From Eledone cirrhosa (taxonomy: Eukaryota): DNA of 64,000 nucleotides. Below are positions 15,223-33,126 of this stretch, piece after piece; within the stretch, counting starts at the first letter, position 1; every line of letters starts with the position of its first letter. Under the pieces are notes generated by a model that did not search any database, had not been told where the DNA came from, and saw only the letters and a program-made list of their open reading frames with translations. Both the position numbers and the translations under genes were made by a program. The stretch spans positions 153,822,001-153,886,000 of the forward strand of contig OZ024741.1 of NCBI GenBank assembly GCA_964016885.1. The letters are read 5' to 3'.

Positions 15223-15410
15223 TGGTGGTGGATTGGCAGTATCGGTAGAGGGTCGGACGCCATGCTTTCCAGCATAGTTACGTCCCTTTACGATCTGAGT
15301 TCAAATCCCGCCGAGGTTGACTTTGCCGTTCATCCTTACGGGGTCGATAAAATAAAGTACCAGTAATGCACTGGGTAATTGCTGGCCTTGTGCCTAAAGT
15401 AGAAACAATT
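15223..15410 (+). mobile_element. Family-A SINE with 14-bp target-site duplication
   Basis: A box tggcagtatcgg and B box gagttcaaatcc. Flanked by attatatatactat at 15209-15222 and 15408-15421. Confidence 0.85.
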
Positions 15411-15421
15411 ATATATACTAT

Positions 15422-17411
15422 AGAGGGACCAGCAGTACAAGTCAGCGGCAGCGCAGTAAGTAAGGCAATCAGAGATATGAAGATGGGGAAGGCAACCGGT
15501 CCATCGGGTATAGCTGCCAAGATGCTGAAGGCATCTGGGTCTGTAGGTCACACTATAACCACACGTATCGTTAACCAGGTAATACTAGAAGGGGCCATAC
15601 CAAAAGATTGGTGCAGTAGCATCATTGTCAACTGCTACAAAGGTAAAGGCGATGCACTAGATAGAGGAAACTATAGAGGTATAAAGTTGATGGACCAGGT
15701 CATGAAAGTAACAGAAAGAGTTATAGCACAGCTGATTAGGGACCGGGTGAAAATAGACGAGATGCAATTTGGGTTTGTACCAGGAAGAGGCACCACTGAT
15801 GCCCTCTTCCTTGTGAGGCAATTACAGGAAAAGTACCTAGCTAAAAGTAAGCCACTCTACTTGGCATTTGTCGACCTTGAGAAAGCCTTTGACAGAGTTC
15901 CACATGCTGTAATCTGGTGGGCTCTTAGAAAACTAGGAGTAGATGAATGGCTTGTGAAAGCGGTACAAGCCATGTATAGGGGAGCAGTCAGCAAAGTTAG
16001 GATTAGCAATGAGTATAGCGAGGAATTTAGCGTACAGGTTGGGGTCCACCAGGGCTCTGTTCTTAGCCCTCTCCTGTTCATCATAGTCCTGCAGGCAATA
16101 ACGGAGGAGTTTAAGACCGGATGCCCATGGGAACTCCTGTATGCTGATGACCTCGCACTCATAGCTGAATCTATGGTAGAACTAGAGAATAAATTCCAAA
16201 CCTGGAAGCAGGGACTAGAAAGAAAGGGTCTCAAAGTCAACATGACAAAGACTAAGGTCCTTGTAAGTAGATGAGAAAACAGAACCCAGATCCCCTCAGG
16301 AAAATGGCCTTGCTCAGTATGTAGGAAAGGTGTAGGTAGGAACTCCATTCTCTGCCCCAAATGCAAACAATGGGTACACAAGAGATGTAGCGGGATATCA
16401 GGAAGCTTAATTAAGAATGTTGGATTCACATGCAGCAGCTGTGCTGAGACAGCAAACAGCAAACAGCCACAGGAAACAAGTACCACCAATCTCTGGGAGG
16501 GCCCTGTAGAAACAGTTGACAGCTTCTGCTACCTAGGTGACCGAATTAGCAACGGAGGTGGGTGTTCAGAAAGTGCAATAACTAGGGTAAGAACGGGATG
16601 GAAGAAGTTTAGGGAACTACTACCACTGCTAGCTGCAAAAGGCTTCTCCCTCAGAATGAAAGGCAGACTGTATGATGCGTGTATCCGAACAGCGATGTTG
16701 CATGGTAGCGAGACCTGGGCGCTGAAGGTGGAAGACTTACGTAGATTAGAGAGAAACGAAGCCTGCATGCTCCAATGGATGTGTAACAATAATATACGTG
16801 AACGACAAAGCATAAATGAATTGAGAGAGAGACTGAGCATAAGAGGAATCAAATGCTGTGTGCAGGAGAGGTGGTTGCGCTGGTATGGACATGTGATGCG
16901 TATGAAGGATGATAGCTGCATAAAAAGGTGCAGAGCACTAGAAGTTGATGGAAGCCGCGGAGTGGGGAGACCCAAGATGACCTGGGATGAGGTGATAAAA
17001 GCCGACCTTACCCAATTACACCTCTCAAAGACAATGACACACGACCGTGACTTCTGGCGTCACGCAGTAATACAGAGTACCCGACCTCCCATGGGTACAA
17101 GCTGAAGCATATAGACAATATGCCCCCACACCCCCCACCGCAAGGTGGTCGTGGAGGTGCCACGGAAAAAAAGCACCCAGCCCACACTGTAAAGTGGACG
17201 TGTAGGCGCCACGGAAAAAAAGTACCCAGCACTCACTGTAAATGAGGTTGGTGTTAGGAAGGGCATCCAGCTGTAGAAATCAAGCCAAATCAGTTCCTGT
17301 ATGAGCAAGGCATGGTCAGCCGACCAGACACTGCCCACAACAGGACAACCCGTCTAACCCATGCTAGCGTGGAAGAACGGACGTAAAACGGTGATGGTGA
17401 TGATGATGATG
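15422..17411 (+). mobile_element. 5'-truncated RTE-clade LINE (RT + PHD finger) with a single nonsense mutation
   Basis: RT motifs [29 protein letters not shown]. After TGA at 16272-16274 the same frame continues to 17105. The 3' UTR ends in (GAT)n. Confidence 0.95.
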
Positions 17412-18334: not shown

Positions 18335-21300
18335 ATCATCATCATCATCATCATCAACGTTTAACGTCCGTGTTCCACGCTTGCATGGGTTTGGACGGGG
18401 GTAGTCCCACTTGAGGCAAGAGTGATTGTCTTGCTCGCATAGGACTGTCTGGCAGGTTTTCTACAGTTGGATGCCCTTCCTAACACCAACCACATTTACA
18501 GTGTGGGTCTGGGAGGTTTTTACCGTGTTGCCTACACGGCCACATTACAGCGTGGACTGTGTGTTTTTTTGTCGTGACACCTACACGATCTCATTTGTTT
18601 CGGCCTGGATGGCGCGGCACCAACATAACTTTACATAGAACGGGGTGGTGTGGATGGGGTGGGGGTGGCGGCGGGAGGGATGTATTTTGTTAGATATGCC
18701 TACTGGCAAGGCGGGTCTTCTCTGTTACTGAGTACCGCCAAAGGTCACGGTCCAGTGACATTGTCTTGGAGAGGTGTAAGTGTGTGAGGTCGGAGTTTAT
18801 CAGCTCATCCCATGTTTTTCTAGGTCTGCCTATTCCGTGGCTACCGTCTATCTTTATTGCCCTGCACTTTGTAATACAGCTATCGACTTTCATGCGCATC
18901 ACGTGTCCATACCAACGCAGCCTTCTCTCGAGTAAACAACATCTGATCCCTCTTATCTCTAATTTTTTCCTTAGTTCGTTTATGCTTTGCCGTTCACGTA
19001 TATTACTGTTACACATCCAGCGGAGCATGCAAGCTTCGTTCCTCTCTAGTCTGCGTATATCCTCTGCACACAATGCCCAGGTCTCACTACCATGCAACAT
19101 TGCTGTTCGTATGCAGGCATCGTACAACCTGCCTTTCATTTTTAGGGAGAACCCTTTAGCAGCTAATAGTGGTATAAGCTCTCTGAACTTTTTCCAACCA
19201 GTTCTGACTCTAGCTACAGTACTTTCAGAGCACCCTCCCCCACTGCTGATTTTATCGCCCAGGTAACGGAAGCTGTCCACTATTTCTATAGAACCCTCTG
19301 CGCAATTGAAAGAGCTAGTATTTTGTGGGCACTTGCTGCTACTTATTGCACCAGAACACCGGCCACATGTAAAGTCTATGTTCTTAGTTAGCTTACCTGT
19401 GATCCCACTACATCTTTTATGCACCCATACTTTGCATTTAGGACATAAGATGGAGTTTCTACCTACGCCTTTCCTACATACCGAGCACGACCATTTCCCA
19501 GAAGGGACCGCCGCCTTGTTTTCTTTCCTACAAACTAGAACTTTGGTCTTAGCCAGGTTAATTTTAAGTCCTTTTGACTCTAGGCCGTGCTTCCATGTTT
19601 GGAATTTCTTCTCTAGCTCGGCCATTGATTCCGCTATGAGTGTCAGGTCGTCTGCGTATAGGAGTTCCCATGGGCAGCCTGTCTTGAACTCCTCTGTTAT
19701 AGCCTGAAGGGCAATAATAAATAGTAGGGGGCTGAGAACAGAGCCCTGATGGACGCCAACTTTTACGCTAAACTCTTCACTATATTCGTTGTTAATTCTA
19801 ACCTTGCTGACTGTTTCTTTATACATGGCTTGTATAGCCCTCACAAGCCATTCGTCAACGCCTAGTTTTCTAAGAGCCCACCAGATAATGGAGCGGGGGA
19901 CTCTGTCGAAGGCTTTCTCCAGGTCGACAAAAGCTAAGTAGAGGGGTTTACCTTTAGCTAGGTACTTCTCCTGTAGTTGTCGTACTATGAAAAGAGCGTC
20001 TGTGGTGCTTTTGCCTGACACAAACCCGAACTGCATTTCATCTAGATCAATTCTCTCTCTGATTAGTTGCGCTATTACTTTTTCCGTGACCTTCATGACC
20101 TGGTCGATTAATTTAATGCCTCTATAGTTACTCCTATCTAGGGCGTCTCCTTTACCCTTATAACAGTTAACGATGATGCTGCTATGCCAGTCCTTCGGAA
20201 CAACCCCATTCTGTACGACTTGGTTAACTATGCGGGTGACCATGTTGTGTCCCACCGTGCCAGATGCCTTCAGCATCTCAGCAACTATTTCCGAAGGCCC
20301 AGCCGCCTTACCCGTCTTCATATCCTTGATTGCCTTACTTATTATACTCCCCTCGACTAACACTGCTGGTCCCTCTATCGGGTCGATAAGGGGGAGACTG
20401 TCTTTCTCCCATTTATTCTCCTCATTTAGTAGCCTTTCATAGTGACACTTCCAAGCTACCTTCTTATCAGTGTCGGTGATGGCAAGTATGCCATCATCGT
20501 TAAGTACACACTTCTCCCCGACAATATCACGGTTTTCCTTGACGCATTGCCTGGCAATCCTGAACACCTCACGTTTTTGGTCATCGCGTTGTAGAACATG
20601 CTTGAACTTTCTTTCCTCAGCTTCCCTTCTTGCTAAGTACACTTCTCTCCTAGCTTCCCTCCTGGCCACTTGATAGTCTACTCTACTTCCCCCATCCCGC
20701 CATACTTTCCAAGCCTGCTTTTTGGCCTTAATTGACCCCTCCACCCTATTGTTCCACCACCATGTTACTCTCCTCCTGCCTACAGGCCTGCTCCAGCCAC
20801 AGACTTCGTCTGTCGCCAACAGCAGGTTTGCTTTCAGAAATTTCCACTGTCCCTCTATATTGTCCGATTCTAGATGCTCTTCCTTACTGTCGAAAGCATC
20901 AAGTAATATGCTTTGAAATTTATTTCTGGCTGTGGGGTCCTTTAGTTTCCATATTTTCCTCCTGAGGATAGTCCTCTTCTGCTGTCGGGTGCGTCTCGTC
21001 CTGACTATGAGGTCGCTAATTATCAGTCTATGTTGGGAGGTGCATTCTTCATGGGGGAGGGATTTAGTGTTTACAACAGACACTCTGTCACGTCTTCTGG
21101 TAAGGATATAATCTACCTGGCTTGTGTGTTCCCCGGATCTATAGGTAATCAGGTGATTGTCACGTTTTTTGAAGTTAGTGTTACAGATAGTTAGGTTATT
21201 TGCATCACAGTATTCCAGAATTCTGGAGCCTTCCTCATTTCTAGTACCAAACCCATAGCCTCCATGGATTTCGTCATAGCCGTCACAATGTTGTCCAACG

Positions 21301-21680
21301 TGACCATTTAGGTCGCCTGCAATAATTATATAGTCACTGTCAGATATTTGGGAGGTAGTTAGCAACAGTGTCTCATAGAATCTGTCTTTTATAGTGCCGG
21401 GCAGTCCGGATTGGGGTGCGTACGCAGATATTACTGTCACCGTAGTTCTATTGAGGACAAGTCTTATTTTAATTATTCTGTCGTTCACTCTATTTACGTC
21501 TATTATCTTATCTGCCCACTTTTCTGCTACCATGATTCCTACTCCACCCAGCCCATCGTCGTTTCCCACCCAGAAAAGCTTATAACATCGTTTTTTACCC
21601 TCAATGAATCTAGCAGACCCACCCCTCCACCTGGTCTCTTGAATACAACAAACATCGACCTCCTTACGTTCAAGCATTTC
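18335..21680 (-). mobile_element. Near-full-length RTE-clade LINE
   Basis: (GAT)n tail at 18335, 3' UTR shared with other copies, one uninterrupted ORF. The 5' end is truncated at a (TA)n tract. Confidence 0.97.
18690..21680 (-). CDS. RTE ORF: AP endonuclease + reverse transcriptase + PHD finger (N-terminus slightly truncated)
   Basis: APE motifs CIQETR, SAYAPQ, GDLNGH, VDYIL, SQHRL; [25 protein letters not shown]; a C4HC3 motif. The YI-repeat N-terminus in the ORF track is microsatellite read-through. Confidence 0.93.
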
Positions 21681-21724
21681 TATATATATATATATATATA
21701 TGTGTATATATATATATATGTATG

Positions 21725-25984: not shown

Positions 25985-28162
25985 TAGTGGCGTAGCTAGG
26001 GTGTGGCAAGCAGGGCACATGCCACGGGCGCCATATTTAGGGGGGAGGGGCGCAATTTTGACCTAGATCGATTTACATCCATGTCGTTTTTATCATTTTT
26101 AAAAATATAAGCCAAAAATGAAGCATGTGATTTCTTGATAGCCGACTTCCACGCCATGGTTTAGTGCACTAGACAGAGCAGATGTCTGATTTGACTTCAC
26201 AAAAACGCCCCCTCCTCCACACTGACAGCAGGGTGGGTTGCAATTATGCGGGCGCTATTTTTAGCTATACATTGCAAAACAGCGGATACCTCAATTGACC
26301 TCACAAAACCTCCCGGCCCCCACTGACTGAAGGGACGTAGTTTTGGACGGGCAACTGGTGGACACGCAGGCACTATTTTTAGCAATGCATTGCAATGACC
26401 AATACAATATAATTATAATTATGAAGCTGGTTTACAAAGCAGAGTAGTTTGTCTTTTACAACTGGTACATAAGACGTATAGAAAAGATATCATAATCCAA
26501 ATGGCCAGATAGGATCGGATAGCTTCTATTAGGAATTCAATTTGACTCCAGTTTAGATGGTTCAATGTTTTCTTCTATAATACAGTTCATCAGAATTTAC
26601 TAAATCGTATCCAAAAAGCAAGATACTATGGTCTGCTGATTGATTCGACCCCTGACCAGGCGAGAACAACTGTCAAAAGTTGTGCGATATGTCGATGTTG
26701 ATTTCAATATGAAGACGGTCATTGTGAGGGAATCTTTTCTTGGATTCATTCAAGTAATCAAAAAAGATGTCGCAAGCCTTGTTGAAACAATCGTGAAAGA
26801 GCTAGAAAAAGATGACCTACCACTGCAGAACTGTCGATCGCAGTGCTACGACAATGCTGCCATAATGGCTGGGCACCGCAGTGGGGTTTAGCAGAGAATG
26901 AGAGAGAAGAATAATTTGATTCACTTCATTAATTGCGATAACCATTCACTTAATCTGGTTGGTCTTCATGCAGCCAAAAACGATTCTGCTATGATGAACT
27001 TTTTCAGTTGCATTGACTCGTTATACAACTTTTTTTCTCATTCAACACGACGATGGGAAGCCCTTAAAGAAGTTGCTCCAGTGGTTGTTAAATATCCTTC
27101 CGACACGCGGTGGAGTGCTAGATGTACCGCAGTCAGACCGGTGGCGAATTATTTGACGCTGATTGTTCAAGTTCTCAAAAAAATTAGTGATGATGAAACA
27201 GAGACATGCGAGAGTAGAAGTGATGCCAATAATCTCCATAATCGGATACTGAGTTATGAATTCCTGAACTTGATTGGATTCTGGAACACGATTCTCTCAC
27301 GAATTGACCGGGTTCAAAAGAGACTTCAAGATCCAAGAATGAATTTTCACGATGCTGCCCTTCAACTTTATTTTAAAGAAGAAGGAACATCCTTAATCCA
27401 CGAGTCTCTTGAAATGGGCTTCGACCTCTGCCAGAAATGGAATGTCGATTTTCCGAGGAGGCGAGGAAGACGACAAACCAATACCGAAATTACTGAGGGC
27501 GTCGAGGTGGCTGCCAGAAAAGAGATAGAGAGAGCAATGCAAAGTTCACTCAATCGTCTTCAAACAGAAATGGAAGAACGGTTTATTCGACTTAAGGAAA
27601 CCGACTCAAGTTTTGGCTTTCTTCTTGATGTCAACTATCTGTTTTATTTGGCTGCTCCTGATAACCTTGTCCTTAAACAAAGGTGCAACAGTCTTGCAGA
27701 ACTATACAACTCCGACATCAAAGGAGAGCAATTGTATGAGGAAATCTTGGACTGCCGAGGCACTTCTCCAATTCATCATACAATACGGCGATGAATGTGT
27801 TTTTCCCAATTTGCGAATCAGCATTCAAATAATGTTGACGATTTCTATTTCAATTGCCAGTTACGAGAGGTCGTTCAGCAAGCTGAAGCTAATACATTCG
27901 TATTTGCGAACCTCAATGGGCCAACAACGGCTGACTGACCTCGCCCTTTTGAGTGTAGAAATCGAAGAGTTTGAACGAACTGATTTCGAGGAAATTATCA
28001 ACCAGTTTGCATCATTTAAAGCCTGAAAAATCAAGTTGTAACCGTTTTTTGTTTTTTTATTATAAATTCTACCGCAATTTCGTCTTTGTGGATCTTTACT
28101 TTTTGATGGGGGGGGGGGGGGGATGCTTGCCCTGGGCGCCGTTTACCCTAGCTACGCCACTG
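25985..28162 (+). mobile_element. hAT-superfamily DNA transposon (ZMYM1/DUF4371-type), internally deleted
   Basis: 18-bp TIRs tagtggcgtagctagggt / accctagctacgccactg, with tatatata on both flanks (consistent with an 8-bp TSD). Confidence 0.92.
26500..28026 (+). pseudogene. hAT transposase pseudogene
   Basis: LIDSTPD, EQLSKVVRYV, ESFLGF, QCYDNAAIMAG, CDNHSLNL, TRW, and the dimerisation motif FPNL...ERSFSKLKLIHSYLRTSMGQQRL. Broken by a stop and frameshifts. Confidence 0.9.
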
Positions 28163-28845: not shown

Positions 28846-29106
28846 GTTTTATTTTATTTTTCCTTTCCTTCTCCCTTTTCCAGCCTCACTTTCATATAGA
28901 TTGCATTTTTGTTTTTAGAATCCATATTCAATAAACAAACCAGGATTTTTCATTCTGAGGATTGAAAGCAAAACCTTTTGCTTTTAAGAAACCACTGGTA
29001 AATGGAATAATTGCCTTATGTTGTTTATTACATAATAATAATAATTAAGCTCTGTTGCATACATAGAGGACTCTTTTTTCCTGGACTTTTCCGATGGAAT
29101 TACTTC

Positions 29107-31630: not shown

Positions 31631-32080
31631 ATTAGATGCGAGTGAAGCTCTCTTGGATTAGTTAGCTTTACTAGTACTCTACCTGATAGAGACTTAGCAT
31701 AAGTTATTCTATGTTTATATATATATAAACATAGAATAACTTATATAATGATAAAGAATAAGGCAGTATTCTGGAATCTTACATAATTTTATTAATTACA
31801 TTATTGTTGTTATACTTATTTCAATACCATCAATTAAGTAATTGATATGGCCTCATCAGACAGGTAGTATGTTATTTTTTATACTGAAAAACCTCTGTCC
31901 TAATTAAACCTGTATGATTACATCACAGACTAGAAAATATAGTACGTTGAGTGCTAAAATCTGCTTACACAATTATTAGTTGATCAATACATATAACTGA
32001 AAAACAATCACACATTGACGAACATGAATGGACCAAATATCCAAATAAATATATAAATAAACAAATATATATATATATAT

Positions 32081-32415
32081 ATATAACATAATAAATGGAG
32101 AATCAGTGGTGCGAAGAATAAGATTTATTAGACATATTACAATCGTTTCTCTGGTGACCAGCTCGAGGCACGATCGATGTAATGATCGAACCTGACTCTG
32201 AAATCGCAAGATCCTCATATATGTCTCGATTCTACGAAATGTCTTGATTCTATGAAGCTTCGTAGAGTCGAGACATATCTGAGGATCTTGTGATTTCAGA
32301 GTCAGGTTTGATTATTGCATCGATCATGTCTCGAGCTGATCGCCAGAGAAACGATTGTAATATGTCTAATAAATCTTATTCGTCGCACCACTGATTCTCC
32401 GTTTCTTATGTGATA
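32081..32415. repeat. ~335-bp palindrome carrying two head-to-head hammerhead motifs
   Basis: The arms are reverse complements around aagctt (32255-32260). There is an 18-bp tandem duplication at 32221-32256. Confidence 0.9.
32272..32366 (+). ncRNA. Type I hammerhead ribozyme
   Basis: gacatat-CTGAGGA-tct...aga-GAAAC-gatt-GTA-atatgtc: perfect 7-bp stem I, intact core, long stem II, minimal stem III, GUA cleavage triplet. Confidence 0.75.
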
Positions 32416-33126
32416 TTATACTCTGCTCTGTAAGAGCCTCGCGTGCTCAAACGGCATACCGCTTACGGACGCTTTAAGCATCCCACACCAATTATATATA
32501 TATATATATCAAGATAAATTAACGGAGCCATAGACTCTCGTTATTCCCTGTAAATTATGTGCTCAAGGGAAAATGAATCCTGAGCTTGCTTCCATTTCAG
32601 TTAATAATTTCTTGGCGAAACAGATCTCTTTGGATATGTACGTGTGTGTTATATAGTTATAGCGGTGCGTATGCGTATTTTAATTTATATTTTTAATTAT
32701 TGTGTGTCTACCCTGCCTTCCATAGGTTATAGATTCCATACACTGGTGGTTTCCCTGTTTTATTGATGGCACACAATCTATCTCTCTCTCTTTAATGTGT
32801 TACCCTTTCTACATATTGTATATATATATATATATATATAGTAATAATAATAAATTTGAAGACTAAAATCTAAAGAGGGCTCGATAAGGATAAATATATA
32901 TCAGATATATAAGAACCATAGAGCAAATATTTATAAAAGTAACAGATTAAAGTTTAAGCAAAGAATCGCTGCTTTCACCCTTAGCGGGATCTTCTGAAAC
33001 TAAAAAAGTCAATCTGTGAACGCAGAAGTAAATATTTCAAAAAACGTTGCAACTGAAGGAAGACAGGAAGACGATACTTTGGTTTGTGGAAACGTTCCCT
33101 TGCAAAGAGCGGAAAAAAACGAAGAT

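What the first reader, a model, noticed from the sequence alone, without database searches (positions are those of the whole stretch)
32081..32415. Palindromic element carrying head-to-head hammerhead ribozymes
Seen: the right arm holds a complete type I hammerhead on + (stem I gacatat/atatgtc, CUGAGGA 32279-85, long stem II tct.gtgat/atcgc.aga, GAAAC-gatt-GUA, predicted cleavage after 32359). The left arm holds the mirror copy on - (32131-32225) with the core changed to AUGAGGA. The element abuts a (TA)n tract. Known: minimal type I hammerheads with a tiny, often palindromic stem III are typical of Penelope-like element repeats and non-autonomous retrozymes and can cleave as dimers. Inference: this is a non-coding, ribozyme-bearing mobile RNA family that would be mis-annotated as a MITE. 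A read-through transcript would fold into dsRNA and mask the ribozyme.
Basis: partly seen in the sequence, partly recalled or inferred. Interest (0 to 1): 0.72.

Follow-up and report, generated by a model that had tools for sequence, protein, structure and literature searches.

The report
Head-to-head Penelope retroelement stump
This mirror-image DNA is two short, decaying copies of the hammerhead-bearing end of a Penelope-type jumping gene joined head to head, a known insertion pattern rather than a new mobile RNA family, and its many sister copies suggest that both halves were likely copied from one uncut RNA.

Summary
The palindrome and both type I hammerhead motifs are there as described. 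The element is 76 nt longer than reported: a one-sided tail runs to 32492, with (TA)n on both sides. It is not an independent ribozyme family or a MITE. Longer copies lead into a ~4.8-kb Penelope-like element (pLTR with hammerhead, RT + C-terminal GIY-YIG ORF with Hydra-clade motifs, 3' UTR, pLTR). An inverted 5'-truncated copy with a tail at one end is the published PLE insertion pattern, and opposite-strand hammerhead pairs were reported in 2014. Three other hammerhead families here show it too. The left-core change is private decay, and copies decay evenly across the core. Counts that bear on mechanism: 46 of 48 palindromes pair a tailed with an untailed end; arms share subfamily letters (93% against 60%); 5' ends pile up about 115 nt upstream of the predicted cut (31 of 92), not at it (4 of 92). 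This fits double priming on one uncleaved RNA with run-off at its start (inferred). Cleavage is untested. The scan noted the same architecture before on other DNA (495 notes, at least 45 genomes).

The parts
32065..32085 (.). (TA)n target tract, left side; merges with the untailed end of the left arm
   Evidence: 140 of 150 classed 3' ends in 100 loci abut (TA)n
32081..32258 (-). left arm: inverted, 5'-truncated pLTR copy with the untailed 3' end at 32081
32131..32225 (-). type I hammerhead motif, decayed copy (C3 to A at 32218)
32221..32256 (.). 18-nt tandem duplication next to the inversion junction
32254..32261 (.). fold-back centre where the two arms meet (2-nt self-complementary overlap at 32257-58), about 13 nt short of the family's 5'-end hotspot
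   Evidence: read from the sequence against the family unit
32257..32416 (+). right arm: 5'-truncated pLTR copy in sense orientation
32271..32367 (+). type I hammerhead motif with intact core, 62-nt stem II region and self-complementary helix III; predicted cut after 32359
32417..32492 (+). 76-nt one-sided tail; in full-length elements this sequence continues into the 5' UTR and the ORF start
32493..32509 (.). (TA)n target tract, right side

Best explanation
This is a decaying head-to-head insertion, in a (TA)n tract, of two short copies of the hammerhead-bearing pLTR of a Hydra-type Penelope-like retrotransposon, likely made when both cut target strands primed reverse transcription on the same uncleaved element RNA. 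Shown: the parent element, the one-tail/no-tail geometry, the shared subfamily letters, the 5'-end hotspot and the even decay. Inferred: the RT-GIY-YIG protein cuts both strands of (TA)n. One strand primes at the end of the tail, the other 76 nt further upstream. Both start sites lie downstream of the ribozyme cut, so the template must have been uncut. When priming is in the 5' pLTR, the cDNAs stop at or before the RNA start about 115 nt upstream of the cut site, and their ends are joined with short overlaps or inserts. The hammerhead belongs to the parent RNA (likely weak, needing a dimer or protein help). In this copy it is a passenger, and any read-through transcript is predicted to fold as a long hairpin.
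For: Parent: L083 and L087 carry the hammerhead unit twice in direct orientation, 4880 and 4804 bp apart, with the ORF start about 170 nt after the first predicted cut. [quoted passage not shown] The RT stretch has 2395 relatives at E<=0.001; of the 26 of 680 aa or more among the best 150, 13 show CxCx5C and 17 the C-terminal CxH. Geometry: 58 of 100 position-ordered loci hold an adjacent head-to-head pair; of 59 pairs, 48 had both 3' ends classed, and 46 of these are tailed + untailed (p=8e-12 against 0.5; tailed and untailed ends are 73 and 77 overall). Arms agree at 289 of 310 subfamily-site comparisons against 60% when shuffled. In 28 of 46 pairs the untailed arm reaches further 5', so neither arm contains the other, and in 13 of these 28 it ends at the hotspot. 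5' ends: 31 of 92 in the 13-nt hotspot, 4 of 92 in the 13 nt around the cut, 6.9 expected. PMC11167929: a PLE protein cuts and extends both strands, starts at two internal RNA sites that bound the tail, and uses uncleaved RNA.
Against: No intact ORF was seen among the copies translated, and no RNA or cleavage data exist here. Arm concordance could also come from gene conversion, or from two RNAs of one source locus. The window's own arms differ at 2 of the 9 subfamily sites both cover. 11 of 59 pairs had a 3' end that could not be classed and were left out. 42 of 100 loci show no adjacent partner, though 3-kb windows miss distant ones. That the hotspot is the RNA start rests on one full-length copy starting there (L087; L083 extends further upstream). 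Ends are BLAST ends, good to a few nt. The sample comes from one chromosome and from copies with an exact 28-29-mer. Clade placement rests on motifs and by-eye comparison, not on a tree.
Confidence: 0.8

Rival explanations
1. Same PLE origin, but the mirror half arises by self-priming (fold-back) on an antisense RNA or on the first cDNA, as proposed for Adineta Penelopes.
For: PMC3846280 discussion proposes it for head-to-head repeats (passages). The window copy has a perfect fold-back tip. It explains arm concordance. 18 of 46 pairs have the tailed arm equal or longer, which fits.
Against: In 28 of 46 pairs each arm holds sequence that the other lacks. In 13 of these the untailed arm ends at the 5' hotspot while the tailed arm is 30-200 nt shorter, which a later central deletion would not easily leave. 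It does not explain why the second arm stops at one fixed site.
Confidence: 0.12
2. An independent non-autonomous, ribozyme-bearing mobile RNA (retrozyme-like) that moves as the palindrome or as a circular RNA.
For: Short pLTR-only copies dominate the sample; 917 exact matches of a 29-mer; 5' ends are sharp at one place. Animal retrozymes are proposed to derive from pLTRs (bioRxiv 10.64898/2026.07.22.740005, part 1 of 5).
Against: The tandem-repeat scan shows no array of this unit in the window, and the sampled loci show head-to-head pairs rather than arrays. Centres differ among copies. The sequence is collinear with the coding element. The core decays like its neighbours (5.2% against 5.5% in 40 copies). 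A short pLTR transcript carried in trans by the parent's protein cannot be excluded.
Confidence: 0.06
3. A MITE (DNA transposon derivative with long terminal inverted repeats) whose hammerhead likeness is incidental.
For: A 336-bp near-perfect palindrome in TA context, at high copy number.
Against: One-sided tail in 16 of 17 other top copies, variable 5' truncation, continuity with an RT-GIY-YIG ORF, and a descriptor null of 1 in 300.
Confidence: 0.01

Closest known systems
Insertion architecture of EN+ Penelope-like elements (Craig et al. 2021, PMC8557442 fig. 2 legend; Pen2a_Av, PMC3846280)
   Same: Inverted 5'-truncated copy next to the 5' end, a tail at one end only, a hammerhead in the pLTR, and a microsatellite target.
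   Different: The tail is 76 nt rather than 30-40. Here both halves are pLTR stubs with no ORF between them. The TSD is hidden by (TA)n.
Hydra clade of C-terminal EN+ PLEs (PMC8557442 section 11, supplementary files S1, S2 and protein FASTA, seen as excerpts)
   Same: RW[KR], DKT, CxCx5C, CxxC, CxH, (TA)n target; canonical type I hammerhead with a 4-bp self-complementary helix III; tolerance of a non-G-C pair at 10.1-11.1 (T.T in 3 of the 6 Hydra rows seen).
   Different: About 4.8 kb against generally under 3 kb, with a low-complexity stretch between RT and EN and a 3' UTR of about 1.7 kb. The stem II region is 62 nt against about 12-25 nt in the 6 rows seen. The hammerhead sequence differs from Hydra-1_oBim, so it is another family.
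PLE hammerheads and opposite-strand pairs (Cervera and de la Pena 2014, PMC4209133)
   Same: Type I motif in pLTRs, palindromic helix III/loop 3, dual motifs 100-700 bp apart on opposite strands already reported, low activity expected.
   Different: No G10.1-C11.1 pair, a much longer helix II, and a 7-8 bp helix I.
PAc Poseidon element mechanism (Frangieh et al. 2024, PMC11167929)
   Same: Two internal RT start sites bounding the tail, AT-rich targets, both strands cut and extended, uncleaved RNA as template.
   Different: In PAc the hammerhead overlaps the ORF start; here the cut lies about 170 nt upstream of it. The parts read (1-2 of 4) do not treat head-to-head products.
Non-LTR retrozymes (PMC7229834, listing only; bioRxiv 2026.07.22.740005, part 1)
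   Same: Type I hammerhead with a short helix III, PLE-related.
   Different: Retrozymes are head-to-tail tandem monomers; this is a head-to-head stub of a coding element.

Membership tests
EN+ Penelope-like element | Single ORF with PLE-type RT and GIY-YIG endonuclease | tested here: met
   Pfam scores are below cutoff (GIY-YIG E=0.0025; none for the 811-aa read-through); the copies translated are broken by stops or frameshifts.
EN+ Penelope-like element | pLTRs in direct orientation around the ORF, with a hammerhead | tested here: met
   L083 and L087, 4880 and 4804 bp apart
EN+ Penelope-like element | 5' truncation, inverted 5' copy, tail at one end | tested here: met
   58 of 100 loci have a pair; 46 of 48 classed pairs are tailed + untailed
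EN+ Penelope-like element | Target-site duplication | tested here: inconclusive
   Hidden by (TA)n on both sides
Hydra clade | RWK-like, DKT, CxCx5C linker, CxxC and CxH motifs; no internal CCHH | tested here: met
   Motifs read against PMC8557442 section 11; absence of CCHH judged by eye against excerpts
Hydra clade | Insertion into (TA)n | tested here: met
   140 of 150 classed 3' ends
Hydra clade | Phylogenetic placement with published Hydra RTs | not tested
   The published sequences were seen only as supplement excerpts; no tree was built
Type I hammerhead ribozyme | CUGANGA, GAAA, NUH core closed by three helices | tested here: met
   core intact in 98 of 154 copies. Monomer helix III is only 2 bp; a dimer gives 8 bp at -5.8 kcal/mol.
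Type I hammerhead ribozyme | G10.1-C11.1 pair | tested here: not met
   U-A in 76 and C.A in 68 of 153 copies. Published Hydra motifs also often lack it, and the sister family has it.
Type I hammerhead ribozyme | Covariation in stems | tested here: inconclusive
   No common double change within the family. Two subfamily changes keep pairing on one side (A-U/G-U in stem I, C-G/U-G in distal stem II) and one breaks a pair. A sister PLE family of unrelated pLTR sequence has the same type I fold with a U3-A8 core and variable N7.
Type I hammerhead ribozyme | Self-cleavage | not testable with these tools
   Needs an assay. The hammerhead fold lies 4-5 kcal/mol above the best fold in this copy and a median 3.4 above in 55 copies.
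Non-LTR retrozyme | Head-to-tail tandem monomers, each with a hammerhead | tested here: not met
MITE | Symmetric fixed termini, constant structure, no retro parent | tested here: not met

The most novel reading that the evidence does not exclude
The palindromes of this family are a fossil record of the PLE reaction: one protein complex primes both target strands at two fixed RNA sites 76 nt apart on a single uncleaved sense RNA, with the untailed copy leading, and runs off the RNA start. This would overturn the published antisense self-priming idea and show that the hammerhead does not set the ends of inserted copies in this family.
Probability: 0.5. Interest if true: 0.5.

Novelty: new member of a known kind. 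Interest (0 to 1): 0.25.

Why it matters
As an object it is ordinary: a known footprint of a known retroelement clade, seen in at least four hammerhead families of this genome. Its use is in numbers. How PLEs form inverted ends, and what their hammerheads do in cells, are stated open questions (PMC8557442 discussion passages). This family gives countable predictions: strict tailed/untailed pairing, a 5'-end hotspot, and no pile-up at the cut. It also extends Hydra-type hammerheads to a form with a very long stem II that Rfam misses, and it warns that such palindromes should be annotated as PLE stubs, not as MITEs or miRNA hairpins.

Tried and rejected
Rfam at E<=10 gave 29 matches (27 of them miRNA hairpin models), all below gathering score, and no hammerhead. 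The sequencing-run search listed no RNA holder; this is no evidence either way, and no reads were laid. The search for homologous proteins with the 145-aa EN piece (longer proteins only) found none among 326 candidates; the whole-library search with the RT stretch succeeded. Pfam found nothing on the 811-aa read-through. Selection on inserted ribozymes was rejected: core 29/560 against stem II/loop 115/2080 mismatches; core 4.2% against 3.5% downstream, where the downstream figure is biased low because many loci were picked on that stretch. A pile-up of 5' ends at the cut, reported in earlier scan notes for other families, was not seen here. In one search a wrong anchor shifted printed coordinates by a constant; the windows are off by 1 nt, which does not change the counts, and one search uses the corrected offset. 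A scrambled-order hammerhead using the GAAAC near the unit's 5' end was checked by eye on the unit: a 6-bp helix III is possible, but helices I and II fail, so it was rejected. A common leader or splice upstream of the 5' hotspot was not seen: flanks differ. The strict scan missed the sister family's hammerhead because of its U3-A8 core; it was found by eye and folded. Paper search 'Penelope' + 'twin priming' gave 3 papers, none on PLE mechanism by title or abstract start (listing only). 'hammerhead ribozyme' + 'octopus' + 'Penelope' gave only PMC8557442. Subscription papers are not covered.

Full report
Observation. The inverted repeat is real: 32081-32238 and 32259-32416, 91% complementary, with 14 mismatches. 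The right arm holds a type I hammerhead motif with an 8-bp stem I, CUGAGGA, a 62-nt stem II region, GAAAC, a 4-nt loop and GUA, with the predicted cut after 32359. The left arm holds the mirror copy with C3 changed to A. My descriptor found 2 hits in window 1-35000 and 1 hit in 300 shuffles. Rfam did not detect it.

True limits. A search of the own genome (3.0 Gb) scored 40 of 3172 candidates, all matching nearly the full length at 85% identity or more. In the 17 other top copies fetched, a 76-nt extension lies on one side only in 16 and partly on both in 1, the flanks are mostly (TA)n, and the centre differs from copy to copy. In the window this tail is 32417-32492. Exact 29-mer and 28-mer patterns match 917 and 943 times, with controls at 0; these are lower bounds.

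Parent element. Walking upstream from longer copies led through about 1.7 kb of non-coding 3' sequence into a GIY-YIG endonuclease (E=0.0025, below cutoff) and an RT. Of 20 further loci, L083 and L087 hold the whole hammerhead unit twice in direct orientation, 4880 and 4804 bp apart. There the tail continues into the 5' UTR, and the ORF starts about 170 nt after the predicted cut. The ORF shows RMRWR, DKTG, CxCx5C, CxxC and CxH, which PMC8557442 section 11 gives as Hydra-clade marks, with (TA)n targeting and canonical hammerheads. By eye the RT and EN match the Hydra excerpts in its supplement. The RT stretch has 2395 relatives in the representative library. Among the best 150, 26 are 680 aa or longer, and 12, 15, 13 and 17 of these show the four motifs tested. 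The copies translated are all broken. No tree was built.

Architecture in an ordered sample. I fetched 100 loci in chromosome order: the first 40 places, and the first 60 places not already held. 58 hold an adjacent head-to-head pair, 59 pairs in all. 11 pairs had an unclassifiable 3' end. Of the other 48, 46 join a tailed to an untailed end, 1 has two tails and 1 has none, although the two end types are equally common overall (73 and 77). 140 of 150 classed ends abut (TA)n. Over 74 pairs from all loci then held, arms agree at 289 of 310 comparisons at 10 subfamily sites, against 60% (maximum 74%) when shuffled; the window's own arms differ at 2 of 9 sites. In 28 of 46 pairs the untailed arm reaches further 5', in 12 the tailed arm does, and 6 are equal. 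13 of the 28 end at the hotspot. Junctions overlap in 21, are blunt in 6 and carry inserts in 19. Of 117 segments with an intact 3' end in downstream-anchored loci, 92 begin in the 174-nt range examined: 31 in a 13-nt hotspot about 115 nt upstream of the cut, and 4 in the 13 nt around the cut, with 6.9 expected. Flanks upstream of the hotspot are unrelated.

The ribozyme. The core is intact in 98 of 154 unique copies, and C3 is kept in 147. It decays like neighbouring positions, so inserted copies show no sign of selection. In the window each arm carries about six private changes (read). Subfamily changes avoid the core: two keep pairing through G-U, two lie in the terminal loop, and one turns U-A into C.A at 10.1-11.1. 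With so few changes this is weak support. Better support comes from a sister PLE family (RT 41% identical), whose unrelated pLTR folds into the same type I shape with a long stem II, a U3-A8 core, variable N7 and a stable helix III. The U3-A8 swap is described in PMC4209133. In the window copy the hammerhead fold lies 4-5 kcal/mol above a rival fold that pairs the core, and the median gap in 55 copies is 3.4. Helix III is self-complementary over 8 bp, which 36 of 256 loops would be by chance. The whole insert folds as one hairpin of -269 kcal/mol with hammerhead helices at probability 0. Because the two motifs are on opposite strands, no single transcript carries a dimer.

Mechanism. Shown: parent, geometry, shared letters, hotspot, even decay. 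From the literature: PAc protein cuts and extends both strands at AT-rich DNA, starts at two internal RNA sites that bound the tail, uses uncleaved RNA, and its hammerhead needs the protein (PMC11167929, parts 1-2 of 4). Inferred: each strand of one cut primes at a different site on the same uncleaved RNA. Priming in the 5' pLTR gives short cDNAs that stop at or before the RNA start, and their ends are joined. The term twin priming is recalled from L1 work, and the wording 'run-off' follows earlier scan notes; the counts were made before that look-up. The fold-back model of PMC3846280 (passages) predicts nested arms, which 28 of 46 pairs do not show unless later deletions intervened.

What is known. 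Inverted 5'-truncated copies and a one-sided tail are described for PLEs (PMC8557442 passages; PMC3846280 passages), including a Hydra family (Penelope-13_HM). Hammerhead pairs 100-700 bp apart on opposite strands were reported in 2014 (PMC4209133, parts 1-2 of 4). Other hammerhead families in this genome show the same head-to-head form: L168, L169 and the family at window 28955 (1685 exact matches, with several close opposite-strand pairs among the 100 listed). Earlier scan notes report this architecture 495 times in at least 45 genomes; they are unchecked and not counted as support. Supplements of the bioRxiv paper were not seen, and only excerpts of the PMC8557442 supplement were.

Verdict. 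A new family of a known PLE clade, seen through a known insertion footprint. Interest is low, raised a little by the clean counts that bear on PLE mechanism.

Noticed in passing
window 28948-29007 (+): A second type I hammerhead motif (7-bp stem I, 12-bp stem II, 3-bp helix III, GUA) of another family; a 20-mer has 1685 exact matches, often as close opposite-strand pairs. Parent not sought.
   Followed up: partly
L159-L173 (sister PLE family, about 3.2 kb): Hydra-like RT family whose pLTR has a type I hammerhead with a U3-A8 core, a long stem II and a stable 5-bp helix III, so it may cut as a monomer.
   Followed up: partly
L046 (G000:C1 about 124.53 Mb): The tail of this family runs straight into the RT of the sister family: a possible template switch or nested insertion.
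   Followed up: partly
L168 2650-3250; L169 7880-8190: Two more hammerhead families in head-to-head palindromes within microsatellite tracts, both with perfectly palindromic helix III.
   Followed up: partly
L030 (G000:C1 68.64 Mb): Two palindromes in a row that look like a duplication of one insert, sharing the same centre junction.
   Followed up: no
parent ORF, e.g. L079 between RT and EN: A long hydrophilic, low-complexity stretch between RT and endonuclease, like the N-rich inserts in Adineta Penelopes.
   Followed up: no
window 35014-64000: 69-bp satellite array, 420 copies, 92% matches, with strong strand skew, running off the window end.
   Followed up: no
window 15351-17105 (+) and about 18690-21700 (-): LINE ORFs with RT motifs that look RTE-like by eye; the second is long and open, with an endonuclease-like N-terminal part.
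   Followed up: no
window 26892-28026 (+): Transposase fragments that look hAT-like by eye.
   Followed up: no
window about 31699-31745: Short AT-rich near-perfect palindrome centred on a (TA)n run.
   Followed up: no
L040, L042: Fragments of other PLE-like RT and GIY-YIG ORFs near this family's copies; clade not determined.
   Followed up: no
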